From positions 1 through 54,108 of the IMG/VR virus record IMGVR_UViG_3300043395_001550: a stretch of DNA of 54,108 nucleotides; one strand, given 5' to 3'. Position numbers and translations under genes: made by a program. Source of the stretch: a virus. Lineage: Duplodnaviria; Caudoviricetes. Numbering within the stretch: the first letter of the stretch is position 1; every line of letters starts with the position of its first letter. Below the pieces are notes generated by a model, which saw only the letters and a list, made by a program, of their open reading frames with translations, was not told where the DNA came from and ran no database searches. Positions 25,875 to 48,042 of the stretch are shown piece by piece.

Positions 25875-28625
25875 CTAGTTATTAGGTATTATACTACCTC
25901 TGCTGTCTCTTGTCACTCTACCAACACAATCAACCACACTAATCAATTGAACGTCTTCTGGAATTCTATCATCACCTTCAGCAAGATCACCCACTCTAAT
26001 TACGTTGAATACGGGAACCATATCTGCATTAATGCCTTGATTAGAATTCACGCGAATAGTTGGCCACTCTGCAAATCCTATACCAGGACTAATTACATTT
26101 ACAGATTCAAGTCTACCAACACTATCAAATACTGGTTCTAATACTGCGCCTCGATCCGGTGTGATTGTAATTGTATCTCCCGGTTGATAATTTACACCAG
26201 GATTTGTTACTACAATTTCACCAATTTCCAAGACTACCGGATATGAACCGTTAGATGTTGGATACTCTGGTGGTACTACTGGACCGCCAGATGGTGGTAC
26301 TACTGGATCTGCTGCTGGTGGTGTTGTTGTAGATCCACCAACCTCCACCGGAACTGGTGATAGTGGTCCTTGTCCATTAATAACTTCAGTTATATTGCCA
26401 TCATTATCATATATTTCAATCACAGTTCCTGCTGGTGCAGCAATAGTGTCTCCAGGAAGAACTGAGATTGGTGTGAATGGTGGAACAACAGTATATCCAC
26501 TTATATCATTTCCAAGAATTGTGTCAGTTGGAGTTGCATAAACAGATCCATTTGCACCAACATATCCATTTGGTGCTGGGAGATAGGCAACCCCAGGATC
26601 AAGTACAATCACACCAGTAACGGTTAGATCTTCCTCACCAGGATCGGATGTAATGATGTTGTTTAGTGGAGTAATTGTACTTGATCCACTAAATGTTCCC
26701 TGACCAACTTCATTTCCATTTCCATCAACAGCAATACCATCTCCAGTAAATGTTCCATTATCAAAGTTTCCGGTTCCATTAAATGATTGAGTTCCTGTAC
26801 CCGTTCCTGATCCAGTAATTTGACCACCACCCGTATACAGTCCATCATCTGTGAGGAAAGTTCCAGATCCGGTAAAATTGCCTTCCTCATCAAATGTTAC
26901 AGTTCCCTGCATAGTTCCAGCACCCGCAGGCATTTCGCGGAACTGCTCACCACCTGATCCTGGTTGATCTGCAAATCCAGGCAAACCACCGACACCAGTT
27001 CCTGTTCCTGTTCCTGTTGGTGTTGTATTGGTTGGGGATACTGTGGAAGTTCCTGTAGCGGGAGCAACCTGAGCTGCTGTTACTGCGCCATTACCAAATC
27101 CACATTGATCCATCATAGTAACTGATGGCGGGGCAGAGTAACCACTACCACCACTCACCATATCCACAGCGAGTAGTGATCCATCTGGACCAATCACAGG
27201 ATTTCCTGCAGCACCTTTACCATTACCAGTAAAGTTTGCGCGTGGCGGCCCACATGGTTTGGCCTTGGTGTTACATCCACCACCGCCGCCTCCTCCCCCA
27301 CCGGAACCACCAGCACCGCCGGATCCGCCACCTTGGGCAAGAGAGTTTATCAAACTTCCAATATTTTTTGAAACCTCATCTGATTTTTCCTTAGGTCCAT
27401 ACCAGAAACTCCACTGATCATTCATCGTACAGTCAAGTTTCTCATCACAAGAGAGGAATCCTAGCAGACCCCAAAGTATGTTGAGAATGTCTAGGGGTCC
27501 ACCTTTAATATTAAATCCGGCTCCAGCAGCTGCTTGTATCGCCTTTATTACATTATTTACTTTATTGGCAATTGGTCCAATAATGTTACTAAAAACTCCC
27601 CCCGCCATCGCTTCAGCGGCACACATGGGGGCATCAATTAAGTCATCGACTGCCTTCTGAACAAGTCCCTTAACCAGTTCAATCAGAGCATCAATTAGTT
27701 TATTGAAAAGACATTGTAGACCATCTTGCTGTTCCTCTACAACTCTATTGAATCTGGATCTTTTATTTGGAATTACAAGATTGACAATCTCTTTGATTCC
27801 ATCATCAATAATATTATTTGTATATCCTCTAATCTTATCGATCAAAGTCTTGATTAGATTTGCAATAAATTGCGTTGCGGTATTTACTAACTGTGGAATT
27901 GCATTCTGAAGGTCTGATGCGGCACCAAGAAAACTACTTGCTTCGGATCTAATTTGATTAACAAGCTTAAGGAGATTTTTAAGTGCTCTCTGAACACCTT
28001 GCATCTCTCCAGCTGGACCATCGCACTCTCTTGTTTTTGGAACATAGTGTGAGTATGCTCCATCTTTAATTTGGTCAATATGTGCAACTCTACCAACAAG
28101 TGGATTTGGATTTTCCTCTAATGGTGGAGTTCCCTCTGAAGGTCCTTCAAGAAGAAGATTTTTTGTTGAAGATGTTTTTGTTTCTTTTAATCCAATATAA
28201 CCTGTTCTGGGAATATATCCTTCATTTGGATCTCCACCAAACAATCTTGTTTGTGATTGGTTTCCCAAGACTCCCATGATGATGGGTTCGGTTCCATCAA
28301 TACCATCCTTATAGAACCCGATGACATAGTTTCCTTGACGTAGATTTGCTGTCTGTGCAGATCCATCATGGCCACTACCAGCAGTTACTGGATAGAGAAC
28401 TTCTGCCATCGGGAGTTCATCATCGGTAGTATCCTGATACTTCTCTTTAGTATCTCTACCAAAAATTCTCACCTTATACCTATACCCCCATCCCTTCTCA
28501 TCATCCCTCTTATGGACTTTATGAGCATGGTTTTCATTCCAATTTTTCTCATCAACAACTTGTCCCATCCACCAATGGAACTCTGCTGTGCCACTAAATT
28601 CAGAATTGAACAGGTCTCTTGTCAT
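25875..28625 (-). CDS. gp5: baseplate hub/spike protein gp5-like
   Basis: N-terminal OB-fold signature WWMGQV...RYKVRIFG...LPMA...VIGFY-DG...PIIMG. Confidence 0.85.
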   Translation of the reverse strand: MTRDLFNSEFSGTAEFHWWMGQVVDEKNWNENHAHKVHKRDDEKGWGYRYKVRIFGRDTKEKYQDTTDDELPMAEVLYPVTAGSGHDGSAQTANLRQGNYVIGFYKDGIDGTEPIIMGVLGNQSQTRLFGGDPNEGYIPRTGYIGLKETKTSSTKNLLLEGPSEGTPPLEENPNPLVGRVAHIDQIKDGAYSHYVPKTRECDGPAGEMQGVQRALKNLLKLVNQIRSEASSFLGAASDLQNAIPQLVNTATQFIANLIKTLIDKIRGYTNNIIDDGIKEIVNLVIPNKRSRFNRVVEEQQDGLQCLFNKLIDALIELVKGLVQKAVDDLIDAPMCAAEAMAGGVFSNIIGPIANKVNNVIKAIQAAAGAGFNIKGGPLDILNILWGLLGFLSCDEKLDCTMNDQWSFWYGPKEKSDEVSKNIGSLINSLAQGGGSGGAGGSGGGGGGGGGCNTKAKPCGPPRANFTGNGKGAAGNPVIGPDGSLLAVDMVSGGSGYSAPPSVTMMDQCGFGNGAVTAAQVAPATGTSTVSPTNTTPTGTGTGTGVGGLPGFADQPGSGGEQFREMPAGAGTMQGTVTFDEEGNFTGSGTFLTDDGLYTGGGQITGSGTGTGTQSFNGTGNFDNGTFTGDGIAVDGNGNEVGQGTFSGSSTITPLNNIITSDPGEEDLTVTGVIVLDPGVAYLPAPNGYVGANGSVYATPTDTILGNDISGYTVVPPFTPISVLPGDTIAAPAGTVIEIYDNDGNITEVINGQGPLSPVPVEVGGSTTTPPAADPVVPPSGGPVVPPEYPTSNGSYPVVLEIGEIVVTNPGVNYQPGDTITITPDRGAVLEPVFDSVGRLESVNVISPGIGFAEWPTIRVNSNQGINADMVPVFNVIRVGDLAEGDDRIPEDVQLISVVDCVGRVTRDSRGSIIPNN

Positions 28626-46889: not shown

Positions 46890-46918
46890 AGTATAGACAA
46901 AAAAACGGGGGTTGTCAA
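46890..46918 (-). promoter_or_regulatory. sigma70-like promoter TTGACA-N17-TATACT
   Basis: Near-perfect consensus, with the -35 inside the terminator loop. Confidence 0.8.
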
Positions 46919-46926
46919 GACCCCCG
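46899..46926 (-). terminator. intrinsic terminator ending the riboswitch-led operon
   Basis: CGGGGG...CCCCCG stem followed by T7. Confidence 0.8.
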
Positions 46927-46931
46927 GAAAA

Positions 46932-47033
46932 TTATTTTGCTTGTTGTGCTCTTACTAATTGAGCGGTTTTTAGTTTTTTATCCTTATTGATTTTTGTTTG
47001 GATAAGGACTAGCGGAACTAGTGACTGAATCAT
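46932..47033 (-). CDS. small basic peptide (MIQSLVPLVLIQTKINKDKKLKTAQLVRAQQAK)
   Basis: 33-aa ORF translated by hand; AGGAG RBS; ends just before the terminator. Confidence 0.6.
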   Translation of the reverse strand: MIQSLVPLVLIQTKINKDKKLKTAQLVRAQQAK

Positions 47034-47035
47034 TT

Positions 47036-47134
47036 TTATCTCCTGTATACTAGGTGAATTACTGCTGCTAAAAATAATAGGACCACGACCTGTAGTACAC
47101 TCAATTCGCATACTATCGCCATGGGACTGTGCAT
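47036..47134 (-). CDS. small membrane peptide (MHSPMAIVCELSVLQVVVLLFLAAVIHLVYRR)
   Basis: 32-aa ORF translated by hand; TGATG coupling and AGGAG upstream. Confidence 0.5.
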   Translation of the reverse strand: MHSPMAIVCELSVLQVVVLLFLAAVIHLVYRR

Positions 47135-47310
47135 CAGATTACTCCTTTGTATAGATTTTTCTTGGTCTCACTATCCATCGTTTGAATTGGATGGTAATGA
47201 TTACCACGATAAGAATGTTCTTTAGTATCTACATTTTTATGCCATTCAATAAAATCTTTTTTGGGTGTTTCAGTATCATACCACACACCTCGATAACAAG
47301 CTCTTGCCAT
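47134..47310 (-). CDS. DUF4278-like small protein (YRG motifs, related to the IF17 N-terminus)
   Basis: CYRGVWY, SYRGNHY, LYKGV; AAAGGAG RBS; downstream of glnA-type aptamers. Confidence 0.75.
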   Translation of the reverse strand: MARACYRGVWYDTETPKKDFIEWHKNVDTKEHSYRGNHYHPIQTMDSETKKNLYKGVI

Positions 47311-47341
47311 GAGAAATACTCCTTTGTGTTTAAACAATAGA

Positions 47342-47565
47342 GCGTTCCTTCAGGTGGCATACTTCCGTTACAGTCAACTAAGCGTTATTCCACAATCTCC
47401 ACTCACAGAATTTTGGAGAAAGATCTTTGATCTCTCTAAACAATTCCCGTTCAATTTGTGGAGGATAATTTTTTCCATAAATGCGAATCATTAAAATATT
47501 CGCTTGAGAACAGGAAAGAATAAGTGGGAGTGCGATTTCGAACATAGTTGACTGTAATGAACGTT
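47342..47565 (-). ncRNA. glutamine riboswitch (glnA-type) aptamer 2 with an ORF-filled P2 loop
   Basis: CGTTCA-[13-bp stem, about 164-nt loop]-CGGAAGTA-N8-GAAGGAACG. Confidence 0.75.
47378..47545 (-). CDS. 55-aa ORF nested in the riboswitch P2 loop (MFEIALPLILSCSQANILMIRIYGKNYPPQIERELFREIKDLSPKFCEWRLWNNA)
   Basis: Translated by hand; open from ATG to TAG across the whole loop; resembles 5747-5938. Confidence 0.7.
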   Translation of the reverse strand: MFEIALPLILSCSQANILMIRIYGKNYPPQIERELFREIKDLSPKFCEWRLWNNA

Positions 47566-47616
47566 ACGTTCCTTCTGTCGCCTTACTTCCGTTTACTCGA
47601 AGAGTAAATGAACGAT
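47566..47616 (-). ncRNA. glutamine riboswitch (glnA-type) aptamer 1
   Basis: ATCGTTCA-TTTACTC-TTC-GAGTAAA-CGGAAGTA-N8-GAAGGAACG: P1, P2 and AGUA/GAA E-loop. Confidence 0.85.
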
Positions 47617-47712: not shown

Positions 47713-48042
47713 TTAACGTTCGATATATTGAAATTCTCTATTAGCACATTTCAATTGGAGGATAATAATGTCACACCCTATCTTTGGATTTGCATCCCCA
47801 CAAGTGAAAATATCTACTGCTGCTTCACCTGTTTCTGGCCAAGTATGAATAGAGATATGACTTTCTTCCAATAAAGTTAGAACTGTTGCTCCTTGTGGAT
47901 CGAACTTTTTGTATATTGTTTCCACTACAGTTGCGCCACTAGCAACGGCCGCATTCTCCATCAAATCAATAAGAAACCTTTCATCATTAAGAAGATGAAA
48001 GGGGCAACCATATAGATTAAGTAAATAATGCTTCCCCAACAT
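47713..48042 (-). CDS. speD: S-adenosylmethionine decarboxylase proenzyme
   Basis: FDPQG, LLEESHISIHTWPE, DIFTCG. Confidence 0.95.
   Translation of the reverse strand: MLGKHYLLNLYGCPFHLLNDERFLIDLMENAAVASGATVVETIYKKFDPQGATVLTLLEESHISIHTWPETGEAAVDIFTCGDANPKIGCDIIILQLKCANREFQYIER

What the first reader, a model, noticed from the sequence alone, without database searches (positions are those of the whole stretch)
47342..47565. A complete protein-coding ORF fills the P2 loop of a glutamine riboswitch aptamer
Seen in sequence (minus strand): CGTTCA is followed by TTACAGTCAACTA (47557-47545), and 164 nt later by its exact complement TAGTTGACTGTAA (47380-47368), then CGGAAGTA-N8-GAAGGAACG. The last base of the 5-prime arm is the A of an ATG. 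The first three bases of the 3-prime arm are the in-frame TAG of a 55-aa ORF that is too short for the supplied track. Established: these conserved segments match the glnA-type glutamine riboswitch, whose P2 is normally a short hairpin, as in the neighbouring aptamer. Inference: aptamer folding and translation of the nested ORF should compete, because the initiation region is inside P1/P2 and a terminating ribosome would melt the other arm. Glutamine could therefore switch the inner ORF off while controlling the downstream gene. I do not know of a described riboswitch that encloses a whole gene, but I cannot search the literature here.
Basis: partly seen in the sequence, partly recalled or inferred. 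Interest (0 to 1): 0.92.

Follow-up and report, generated by a model that had tools for sequence, protein, structure and literature searches.

The report
Gene nested inside a glutamine riboswitch
In this cyanophage a small, conserved protein gene lies inside one hairpin of a glutamine-sensing RNA switch, an arrangement shared by many related phages and apparently not described before.

Summary
The window holds two glutamine aptamers. Rfam finds the first (47563-47616, minus strand, 44.9 bits). The second has intact conserved halves, but its P2 helix closes across a 55-aa ORF.

The ORF is a real gene. dN/dS is 0.036. It is homologous to the cyanophage gp197 / phrog_504 family (hhalign probability 97.8%).

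The helix is real:
- RNAalifold finds P1 and P2.
- P2 covaries: 229 of 230 cells are paired across 46 distinct sequences, against 40-120 of 230 in shifted registers.

The layout is widespread. It occurs in 82 of 90 related loci and in 19 of 19 sampled isolates. A homologue of the ORF is present in 306 phage records. S-PM2 has the same locus with the second aptamer unsplit.

The start codon almost always lies in the 5' arm of P2, and the stop codon always lies in the 3' half. Whether glutamine turns the inner gene off while turning the downstream IF17-like (DUF4278) gene on is plausible but untested.

Nine literature searches found no description of this. The nearest precedent is a short uORF inside a Mycobacterium tuberculosis B12 aptamer. 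I rate it a new variant of a known kind, of high interest.

The parts
47713..48042 (-). speD (S-adenosylmethionine decarboxylase), the upstream neighbour that fixes the synteny
   Evidence: Pfam AdoMet_dc, E 6e-34. The same neighbour occurs in S-PM2, S-RIM44 and Sf-CH3.
47563..47616 (-). Aptamer 1: an ordinary glnA-type glutamine aptamer with a short P2
   Evidence: RF01739, 44.9 bits against a gathering score of 35, E 1.3e-06, model positions 1-53 of 53.
47558..47563 (-). Aptamer 2: the 5' strand of P1 plus the junction A (CGTTCA)
   Evidence: Read from the sequence. Pairs with 47343-47347 in the RNAalifold consensus. Invariant in 6 of 6 clade members.
47545..47557 (-). Aptamer 2: the 5' arm of P2 (13 nt). 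Its last base is the A of the ORF start codon.
   Evidence: The arm covaries among relatives.
47378..47545 (-). Nested gene: a 55-aa protein of the gp197 / phrog_504 family, predicted to be a two-helix hairpin with two invariant cysteines
   Evidence: ORF. dN/dS 0.036. phrog_504 E 0.004. hhalign against the marine gp197 family gives probability 97.8%, E 9.4e-13. AlphaFold2 mean pLDDT 84.2.
47368..47380 (-). Aptamer 2: the 3' arm of P2 (13 nt). Its first three bases are the TAG stop of the nested gene.
47343..47367 (-). Aptamer 2: the conserved 3' half (CGGAAGTA, 8 nt, GAAGGAACG), including the 3' strand of P1
   Evidence: 81% identical to the same part of aptamer 1. A partial RF01739 match at 47339-47386 scores 13.9 bits, E 0.108, below the cut-off.
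47310..47352 (-). Predicted masking helix. The aptamer's 3' strand plus GCUCU pairs with the SD (AAGGAG, 47319-47324), the spacer and the A of the downstream ATG.
   Evidence: strand folding gives -13.2 kcal/mol, z = -2.05, with 7 of 200 shuffles as stable. The design matches the one proposed for gifB (passages of PMC6212724). This is an inference.
47134..47310 (-). Downstream regulated gene: a 58-aa IF17-like protein (DUF4278) with two YRG motifs
   Evidence: Pfam DUF4278, E 2.7e-4, 21.7 bits, below the cut-off of 25.3. phrog_5049 E 4.8e-16. 74% nucleotide identity to S-PM2 p192.
47036..47134 (-). 32-aa hydrophobic ORF whose ATG overlaps the stop of the DUF4278 gene. Probably part of the same operon.
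   Evidence: A similar ORF start follows the DUF4278 gene in L009. Not studied further.
46906..46926 (-). Intrinsic-terminator-like hairpin with a T run, the probable end of the transcription unit
   Evidence: 7 pairs, 6 of them G-C, followed by TTTTTTT.

Best explanation
Window 47342-47616 (minus strand) is the leader of a small cyanophage operon. It holds two glutamine aptamers in tandem.

**What it is.** The first aptamer is ordinary. The second is a complete glnA-type aptamer whose P2 helix closes over a whole, functional 55-aa gene of the gp197 / phrog_504 family. This is a conserved architecture of T4-like cyanophages, not a local accident.

**How it probably works (inferred).**
- The nested gene has no room for a ribosome-binding site of its own. 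Its initiation region is the 3' end of aptamer 1 plus the 5' strands of P1 and P2 of aptamer 2.
- When aptamer 2 folds and glutamine stabilises it, the spacer and start codon of the inner gene are base-paired, so the inner gene is off.
- The same folding draws the GAAGGAACG-CUCU strand into P1 and away from a helix that masks the Shine-Dalgarno sequence of the downstream IF17-like (DUF4278) gene, so that gene is on. This is the design proposed for gifB.
- Conversely, ribosomes starting, elongating or terminating on the inner gene hold the aptamer open. A ribosome stopping at the inner stop codon would also disturb the masking helix.

**Shown here:** the anatomy, the coding status of the ORF, the helix and the conservation.
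**Inferred:** glutamine binding by the split aptamer, and both regulatory outputs.
For: 1. **Conserved positions.** All were read directly in the window. The 3' half is 81% identical to that of aptamer 1, which Rfam validates.

2. **Long-range helices.**
   - RNAalifold on 6 clade members predicts P1 (5 pairs) and P2 (8 pairs), with both-sided changes at 2 P2 pairs.
   - The count of structure pairs finds 97.4% of 78 cells paired, against 23-54% with slid partners. 2 of 500 shuffles reach the observed covariation score.
   - Across 46 distinct nested inserts, P2 pairs 1-5 are paired in 229 of 230 cells, against 40-120 of 230 in shifted registers. Pairs 2-5 each show 2-3 standard pair types.

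3. **A real gene.**
   - dN/dS is 0.036 in the window clade and 0.095 in the 50-aa group.
   - dS falls from 1.017 to 0.365 where the gene overlaps the aptamer core.
   - Homology to marine gp197 is supported by hhalign probability 97.8%.

4. **Breadth.**
   - 82 of 90 loci have both halves framing the ORF.
   - 19 of 19 sampled isolates do.
   - 306 phage records hold the ORF.

5. **A natural control.** S-PM2 has the same locus (speD, tandem aptamers, DUF4278 gene), but its aptamer 2 has a short P2. That aptamer matches RF01739 over its full length at 33.3 bits. Its 3' half has the same type as the nested ones.

6. **Geometry.**
   - The anchored helix reaches the start codon in 76 of 82 loci, and the stop codon lies within the 3' half in 82 of 82.
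   - In marine isolates an SD (GGAG) sits between the aptamers, 10 nt before the ATG.
   - A second gene family (gp196 / phrog_6471) is nested in the same way in aptamer 1 in 6 of 19 isolates, with its ATG inside the P2 arm.

7. **Downstream platform.** A predicted helix joins the aptamer's 3' strand to the SD region. The published gifB model is in passages of PMC6212724.
Against: - There is no experimental or expression evidence.
- The Rfam model does not report the split aptamer. It gives only a 13.9-bit partial match and none in 19 isolates.
- Marine-phage aptamers score below the gathering threshold of both glutamine families (23-30 bits). Their ligand is therefore assumed.
- P1 never varies, so it provides no covariation evidence.
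- The perfect 13-bp stem is not itself conserved. L004, with an identical protein, has two C-A mismatches. L014 has one mismatch. Only the outer 5-8 pairs are kept.
- L005 and L006 lost half of each aptamer through two deletions yet keep both genes. L128 lost the 3' half and the downstream gene but keeps the ORF. The switch is therefore dispensable.
- In the window clade the inner gene has no recognisable SD.
- The masking helix is not more stable than shuffles in 6 of 7 cases folded (z from +0.13 to -1.57).
- P2 is a permissive site. Cyanobacteria carry 142-147-nt non-coding inserts there. A passive passenger is therefore possible.
Confidence: 0.6

Rival explanations
1. Passive passenger. The second aptamer is functional and controls only the DUF4278 gene. 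The small gene merely occupies a permissive loop and is translated regardless of glutamine. The aptamer folds between rounds of translation, or on untranslated copies.
For: - P2 tolerates large inserts. Eight cyanobacterial glnA aptamers have non-coding structured P2 inserts of 142-147 nt.
- The gene survives without the aptamers in L005, L006 and L128.
- Three distant family members (L075-L077) have no aptamer halves at all.
- Phage genomes are compact, which could explain the tight packing.
Against: - The helix reaches the start codon in 76 of 82 loci, and the stop codon lies in the 3' half in 82 of 82.
- There is no room for a private ribosome-binding site.
- A second, unrelated-looking gene family is nested with the same geometry, its ATG paired with CAT in the 3' arm.
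- A base-paired start codon would be hard to leave without any effect on initiation.
Confidence: 0.22
2. Translational coupling dominates. The inner gene acts as a leader ORF. A ribosome terminating at its stop codon, inside or beside the aptamer's 3' half, melts the helix that masks the SD of the DUF4278 gene. The downstream gene then follows translation of the inner gene, and the aptamers mainly set how often the inner gene is translated.
For: - In the 50-aa group and the marine isolates the stop codon TGA or TAA is the first part of the strand predicted to pair next to the downstream SD.
- The stop codon to downstream ATG distance is only about 40-70 nt.
- uORF effects on riboswitch-controlled genes have been shown in M. 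tuberculosis (passages of 10.1101/2023.04.25.538288).
Against: - S-PM2 runs the same downstream platform with no inner gene.
- In the window clade the stop codon lies 10 nt or more upstream of the core.
- The masking helices are weak and mostly no better than shuffles.
- This rival is compatible with the main model and is not strictly exclusive of it.
Confidence: 0.12
3. Dead remnant. An insertion split and inactivated the second aptamer, and the halves are decaying relics without function.
For: - Rfam does not detect the split aptamer.
- Some lineages have lost halves.
Against: - Both halves and the complementarity of P2 are kept across lineages whose proteins share only 31-45% identity with the window's.
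- There are compensatory changes.
- Synonymous change is depressed where the gene overlaps the core.
Confidence: 0.03
4. Not a gene. The insert is a structured non-coding P2 extension, as in cyanobacteria, and the ORF is accidental.
For: - The insert folds well (z = -5.3).
- Cyanobacterial inserts of similar size are non-coding.
Against: - dN/dS is 0.036-0.095, and variable sites are concentrated at third codon positions: 38 of 41, against 11 of 41 at second positions.
- Start and stop codons are conserved and length differences are whole codons.
- The family has 306 phage records, annotated as a coding sequence in 58 of the 60 listed.
- A confident two-helix model was obtained.
Confidence: 0.03

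Closest known systems
glnA-type (type 1) glutamine riboswitch, RF01739, often in tandem, upstream of gifB / DUF4278 genes in cyanobacteria (Klahn et al. 2018, PMC6212724, passages read; Weinberg et al. 2010, PMC2864571, passages read; Ames and Breaker 2011, not held)
   Same: - The same conserved P1 and junction sequences.
- A tandem arrangement.
- A downstream DUF4278 (IF17-like) gene.
- A pyrimidine tract right after P1 that can pair with the SD, as in the proposed ON-switch design.
   Different: - P2 is closed over a 164-190-nt insert that is a conserved protein gene.
- The Rfam model does not report the aptamer.
- The inner gene's start and stop codons are built into the aptamer.
Unsplit tandem aptamers of Synechococcus phage S-PM2 (NC_006820, locus L286)
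   Same: - The same locus: speD, two aptamers, DUF4278 gene.
- Aptamer 2 has the same type of 3' half as the nested aptamers.
- It scores 33.3 bits as a full-length RF01739 match.
   Different: P2 of aptamer 2 is a short hairpin, and there is no inner gene.
uMetE2, a short translated uORF inside the P9-P10 extension of the Mycobacterium tuberculosis metE B12 aptamer (bioRxiv 10.1101/2023.04.25.538288, abstract and passages read)
   Same: - An ORF lies inside a riboswitch aptamer.
[quoted passage not shown]
- uORF translation changes expression of the downstream gene.
   Different: - That uORF spans only 48 nt (+123 to +170) and lies in a peripheral extension of a large aptamer. It is not reported as a conserved protein family.
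- Here a 50-57-aa (in aptamer 1, 65-68-aa) gene under purifying selection fills the loop of a roughly 55-nt aptamer, in hundreds of phage genomes.
Group I and group II introns with ORFs (homing endonucleases, maturases) in peripheral loops (recalled knowledge, not checked here)
   Same: A protein gene sits in a loop of a structured, functional RNA, and the helices of that RNA close across the gene.
   Different: Those RNAs are self-splicing ribozymes with mobility genes. Here the RNA is a metabolite sensor, and the inner gene's start and stop codons lie in the closing helix.
Cyanobacterial glnA aptamers with long non-coding P2 inserts (found here: L191, L204, L205, L219, L231, L257, L261, L273)
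   Same: The glnA core is intact. P2 is closed by 7-12 pairs over 142-147 nt.
   Different: Six of the 8 inserts have no ORF of 20 aa or more; L191 and L205 have unconserved 30- and 25-aa ORFs that start 60-odd nt inside the insert. The inserts fold into branched structures (-36 to -59 kcal/mol). They occur in host-type genomes, not in phages.
Leader-peptide attenuation and long-range translational control in RNA phages (recalled knowledge)
   Same: The position of the ribosome on an upstream ORF decides which RNA helices can form.
   Different: No ligand-binding aptamer is involved in those systems.

Membership tests
Glutamine riboswitch aptamer, glnA type (RF01739) | P1 helix formed by CGUUC and GAACG | tested here: met
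   47563-47559 pairs with 47347-47343. RNAalifold predicts all 5 pairs in 6 of 6 sequences. The pairs are invariant, so they give no covariation evidence.
Glutamine riboswitch aptamer, glnA type (RF01739) | Conserved junction sequences CGGAAGUA and GAAGGAACG | tested here: met
   Both are present without change at 47367-47360 and 47351-47343, matching the consensus printed by cmscan.
Glutamine riboswitch aptamer, glnA type (RF01739) | P2 hairpin that begins with U after CGUUCA and ends with A before CGG | tested here: met
   The helix is present and covaries. Its loop, however, is a 164-nt coding insert instead of about 4-8 nt.
Glutamine riboswitch aptamer, glnA type (RF01739) | Small P3 hairpin between the two junction sequences | tested here: inconclusive
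   The 8-nt spacer UGCCACCU allows at most one G-C pair in the register of the model. Aptamer 1 has a similarly minimal P3, flagged as non-standard by cmscan.
Glutamine riboswitch aptamer, glnA type (RF01739) | Covariance-model score at or above the gathering threshold (35 bits) | tested here: not met
   Only a partial match of 13.9 bits, E 0.108, at 47339-47386. This is expected, because the model cannot span the insert. I could not score a loop-excised version: joined sequences may not be typed and Infernal is not in the script box. The unsplit S-PM2 homologue scores 33.3 bits.
Glutamine riboswitch aptamer, glnA type (RF01739) | Selective binding of L-glutamine | not testable with these tools
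   Needs in-line probing, ITC or SHAPE.
Glutamine riboswitch aptamer, glnA type (RF01739) | Location in the 5' leader of a DUF4278 / IF17-like gene | tested here: met
   The downstream ORF matches DUF4278 at E 2.7e-4 (21.7 bits, below Pfam's cut-off of 25.3) and phrog_5049 at E 4.8e-16.
phrog_504 (cyanophage gp197, 'T4-LIKE GC: 430'), function unknown | Sequence similarity to the family profile | tested here: met
   - Window ORF E 0.004; L009 ORF E 1.7e-4.
- S-RIM44 ORF E 9.9e-26.
- Profile-profile probability 97.8%, E 9.4e-13.
- The single-sequence match of the window ORF is weak by itself.
phrog_504 (cyanophage gp197, 'T4-LIKE GC: 430'), function unknown | Same genomic position: inside the second aptamer, upstream of the DUF4278-like gene | tested here: met
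   82 of 90 loci and 19 of 19 isolates.

The most novel reading that the evidence does not exclude
One small aptamer works as a reciprocal two-gene switch that also reads the ribosome. Glutamine-stabilised folding buries the start codon of the gene inside its own P2 loop and at the same time unmasks the downstream IF17-like gene. Ribosomes on the inner gene in turn veto folding. The module is reusable. It has captured at least two or three different small-gene families, and in some phages it occurs twice in tandem. If so, riboswitches are a common device of cyanophages rather than a rarity in phages.
Probability: 0.4. Interest if true: 0.9.

Novelty: new variant of a known kind. Interest (0 to 1): 0.85.

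Why it matters
- **A different use of a riboswitch.** Riboswitch aptamers are treated as compact non-coding units in 5' leaders. Here a conserved protein gene is part of the fold of the sensor, with its start and stop codons in the closing helix. One ligand-binding event could then set two genes in opposite directions, and translation could feed back on sensing.

- **Phage riboswitches may be far more common than thought.** A survey found only two glutamine aptamers in two cyanophage genomes and concluded that phages rarely use riboswitches (McCown et al. 2017, PMC5473149, passage read). Here 306 phage records carry the nested gene. All 19 sampled isolates have the aptamer pair. Only 1 of those 19 has an aptamer that passes an Rfam threshold. 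Standard annotation therefore misses nearly all of them.

- **A testable link to host nitrogen metabolism.** The downstream gene resembles IF17, an inhibitor of glutamine synthetase. This gives a route by which cyanophages could tune host nitrogen assimilation.

- **Experiments are possible.** Cultured phage-host pairs exist with the nested gene (S-RIM44, S-RIM2, S-SM2) and without it (S-PM2).

Tried and rejected
**Mobile element (MITE-like) with terminal inverted repeats.** Rejected. There is no second copy of the insert in the 54-kb record. The insert is a conserved gene.

**Scoring the aptamer with the loop removed.** Not possible. Joined sequences may not be typed and Infernal is not in the script box. 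The unsplit S-PM2 aptamer served as a natural substitute.

**Pattern scan of viral contigs for P2 inserts of 170-200 nt.** It gave 48 stretches. After filtering, only the ORF55-family loci were true long-P2 aptamers. The others had a chance CGTTCA upstream of an ordinary aptamer.

**Pattern scan of genome contigs.**
- 101 of the 120 matches had anchored stems of 4 pairs or fewer.
- The useful results were 8 cyanobacterial long-P2 aptamers and 3 phage-like contigs inside MAGs.
- The scan is incomplete.

**Function of the nested protein.** No clue was found.
- Pfam gave 0 families.
- PHROGs gave only a family of unknown function.
- Foldseek against the PDB gave no hit at E 0.001 or better; 7 hits had E of 10 or less.
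- The protein atlas gave only unnamed viral clusters with scores below 0.9.

**Paralogy of the two nested gene families.** Not shown. hhalign probability is 28% for ORF68 against the ORF55 family, and 3% for ORF68 against the Sf-CH3 gp196.

**Promoter in the window.** The consensus scan reports no sigma-70-like site upstream of aptamer 1 on the minus strand. Related loci and S-PM2 show TTGACT, 17 nt, TATAAT there.

**MAFFT alignment of all 47 nested aptamers (A5).** It did not keep the P2 arms in register across clades. I counted covariation on anchored registers in a script instead, and with the tools on the window clade only.

**Literature.** Nine full-text searches and passages of 9 papers found no description of a gene nested in a glutamine aptamer.
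- Ames and Breaker 2011 is not held.
- Ren et al. 2015 was not read.
- Supplements were closed. Additional file 1 of Weinberg 2010 and the supplementary figures and tables of Klahn 2018 may bear on this claim.
Full report
**1. The observation**

On the minus strand the window reads as follows.
- Aptamer 1, followed by CGTTCA at 47563-47558.
- A 13-nt arm at 47557-47545, whose last base is the A of an ATG.
- A 55-aa ORF, 47545 to 47378.
- The exact complement of the arm at 47380-47368, whose first three bases are the TAG stop.
- CGGAAGTA, 8 nt, then GAAGGAACG, running from 47367 to 47343.

The repeat finder confirms the inverted repeat with 164 nt between the arms. It also shows that the 3' halves of the two aptamers are a 27-nt direct repeat at 81% identity. 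Rfam reports only the first aptamer (47563-47616, 44.9 bits). For the second it gives a partial match of 13.9 bits.

A 13-nt inverted repeat somewhere in 54 kb is not rare: 29 of 100 Markov simulations had one. The case therefore rests on where the repeat lies and on comparative data, not on the repeat alone.

**2. The ORF is a gene**

Close relatives were found in viral and metagenome contigs. Between them, differences are overwhelmingly synonymous.
- dN/dS is 0.036 in the window clade (6 distinct sequences, 12 usable pairs).
- dN/dS is 0.095 in a 50-aa sister group (38 distinct sequences, 636 pairs).
- In that group, variable sites fall at 38 of 41 third codon positions, against 11 of 41 second positions.

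An exhaustive profile search found seven further proteins of 50-57 aa at E 0.001 or better. The family is phrog_504:
- window ORF, E 0.004;
- L009 ORF, E 1.7e-4;
- S-RIM44 ORF, E 9.9e-26.

A profile-profile comparison of the window's family with marine cyanophage gp197 proteins gives probability 97.8%, E 9.4e-13.

The AlphaFold2 model is a two-helix hairpin (mean pLDDT 84.2). Two cysteines are invariant. It has no significant structural match. The function is unknown.

**3. The two halves are one aptamer**

*Within the window clade.* RNAalifold on the six members predicts P1 and an 8-pair P2, with both-sided changes at two P2 pairs. For that structure, 97.4% of 78 cells pair, against 23-54% when the partners are slid.

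*Across clades.* The arms differ but stay complementary.
- Window: 13 pairs.
- L007: TTACTATCAT with ATGATAGTAA.
- L009: TTACTATC with GATAGTGA.
- The 50-aa group: TCTAT with ATAGA, TCTATGG with CCATAGA, and TCTAT with GTAGA.
- Marine isolates: TCCCA with TGGGA.

Over 46 distinct inserts, pairs 1-5 are paired in 229 of 230 cells, against 40-120 of 230 in shifted registers.

*Overlap with coding sequence.* Where the gene overlaps the aptamer core, in the 50-aa group, dS falls from 1.017 to 0.365. That is expected if the RNA adds a constraint.

*A natural control.* S-PM2 has the same locus but an unsplit second aptamer with a short P2. It matches RF01739 over the whole model at 33.3 bits. Its 3' half is of the same type as the nested ones.

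**4. How widespread it is**

I classified 90 loci that encode a family member: 80 plus 10 others. They are not all independent. Among the 80 there are 47 distinct sets of flanks. The result:

| Class | Loci | Notes |
|---|---|---|
| CGTTCA within 15 nt upstream of the ATG, and the 3' core at the stop codon | 82 | |
| Only the 5' half detected | 4 | L072 and L073 have a deletion; L096 has a point change in the core; L128 is degenerate and lacks the downstream gene |
| Neither half | 3 | L075-L077, distant members |
| Cut by the contig end | 1 | |

tblastn with the S-RIM44 protein finds 306 phage records: 249 named Synechococcus phage, 53 Cyanophage and 4 Prochlorococcus phage.

I inspected 19 isolates, chosen for diversity and not at random. 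All 19 show the nested layout. In the marine ones the gene runs through the 3' arm of P2 and the core. The conserved C-terminus (W)DAND and the stop codon are therefore read from aptamer sequence.

Only 1 of these 19 isolates has any aptamer above an Rfam threshold, and no nested aptamer is reported.

**5. A recurring module**

The first aptamer also encloses a gene in some genomes.
- In 6 of 19 isolates it encloses gp196 (phrog_6471, 65-66 aa), with arms such as TCTTATG and CATAAGA.
- In 24 of 84 loci it holds a P2 insert of 200-249 nt. Sf-CH3 and S-TIM54, also among the 6 isolates above, are two of these. In 10 of the others, each with a distinct ORF, the insert was seen to hold a 67-68-aa ORF with arms TCCTAT and ATAGGA.

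In these cases too, the ATG lies in the 5' arm.

**6. Mechanism (inferred)**

*Inner gene.* The anchored helix extends to or past the first base of the start codon in 76 of 82 loci. The stop codon is within the 3' arm or the core in 82 of 82. Only 3-15 nt separate CGTTCA from the ATG. The inner gene's initiation region is therefore made of aptamer strands. In marine isolates an SD (GGAG) lies between the aptamers, 10 nt before the ATG. In the window clade I see no SD.

*Downstream gene.* The strand GAAGGAACG plus GCUCU can pair with the SD, the spacer and the first base of the DUF4278 gene's start codon (-13.2 kcal/mol, z = -2.05). Similar but statistically unremarkable helices are predicted in six relatives. 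This matches the model for gifB. In that model glutamine binding melts a short helix attached to P1 that blocks the ribosome-binding site, giving an ON switch (passages of PMC6212724).

*Combined model.* Folding would turn the inner gene off and the outer gene on. Translating or terminating ribosomes would oppose folding.

*Rivals.* The alternatives are a passive passenger and dominant translational coupling. Lineages that lost the aptamers but kept both genes show that the switch is not essential.

**7. What is known**

- Glutamine riboswitches, their tandem forms and their link to DUF4278 genes are established (PMC6212724, PMC2864571 and PMC9481103; passages read).
- Phage riboswitches were judged rare, with two glutamine aptamers found in two cyanophage genomes (PMC5473149). 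See also PMC9004378.
- A short translated uORF inside the M. tuberculosis metE B12 aptamer is the nearest precedent.
- Nine searches found no report of a conserved gene nested in a glutamine aptamer. The unseen sources are listed under Tried and rejected.
- I also found that cyanobacteria carry glnA aptamers with non-coding P2 inserts of 142-147 nt. This shows that P2 is a permissive site.

**8. Verdict**

Its regulatory part is plausible but untested.
- It is a new variant of a known kind, widespread in cyanomyoviruses, and of high interest.
- My confidence in the architecture is about 0.9. My confidence in the full reciprocal-switch model is about 0.4-0.5.

Noticed in passing
L191:7374-7550, L204:434-615, L205:2420-2600, L219:2891-3071, L231:299-476, and L257, L261, L273: Cyanobacterial genomes and MAGs carry glnA-type aptamers whose P2 is closed by 7-12 pairs over 142-147 nt of structured RNA. 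Six of the 8 inserts hold no ORF of 20 aa or more; L191 and L205 hold 30- and 25-aa ORFs that start 60-odd nt inside the insert. Those with record titles shown are Leptolyngbyaceae, Leptolyngbya, Chroococcidiopsidaceae, Tildeniella and Lyngbya. In six of the 8 the downstream gene does not begin like a DUF4278 gene.
   Followed up: partly
L068:1255-1490; L157, L158, L160, L161, L070; L078:326-575 and about 20 similar loci: The first aptamer of the tandem pair can also enclose a gene. In 6 of 19 isolates it is gp196 (phrog_6471, 65-66 aa). In 10 metagenomic loci it was seen to be a 67-68-aa ORF with a hydrophobic N-terminus. In both, the ATG lies in the 5' arm of P2.
   Followed up: partly
L286:481-582 (Synechococcus phage S-PM2, NC_006820): The same locus (speD, tandem aptamers, DUF4278 gene) has an unsplit second aptamer and a TTGACT, 17 nt, TATAAT promoter just upstream. 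It is a natural control without the insert.
   Followed up: yes
L005 and L006, about 1440-1700: Two deletions removed the 5' half of aptamer 1 and the 3' half of aptamer 2. The second lies between two AGTAAC repeats. Both genes remain intact, and the SD of the DUF4278 gene now follows the inner stop codon directly.
   Followed up: partly
L151-L165, L067-L070: Only 1 of 19 cyanophage isolates has a glutamine aptamer above an Rfam gathering score. The marine-phage first aptamers score 23-30 bits against both RF01739 and RF01704, so they look like an intermediate subtype that annotation misses.
   Followed up: partly
window 47036-47134 and 46932-47033 (minus strand): Two further small ORFs lie between the DUF4278 gene and the terminator. 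One is a 32-aa hydrophobic peptide whose ATG overlaps the preceding stop codon. The other is about 33 aa, with an AGGAG 8 nt upstream of an internal ATG.
   Followed up: no
window 26596-26609 and 26675-26688: A perfect 14-nt inverted repeat with 64-66 nt between the arms lies inside a 916-aa ORF on the minus strand. It is probably chance.
   Followed up: partly
L168, L232, L250: Contigs with the phage-type nested aptamer sit in genome bins; L168's is labelled Acetobacteraceae and L232's Verrucomicrobiales. They are likely phage contigs that were mis-binned.
   Followed up: no
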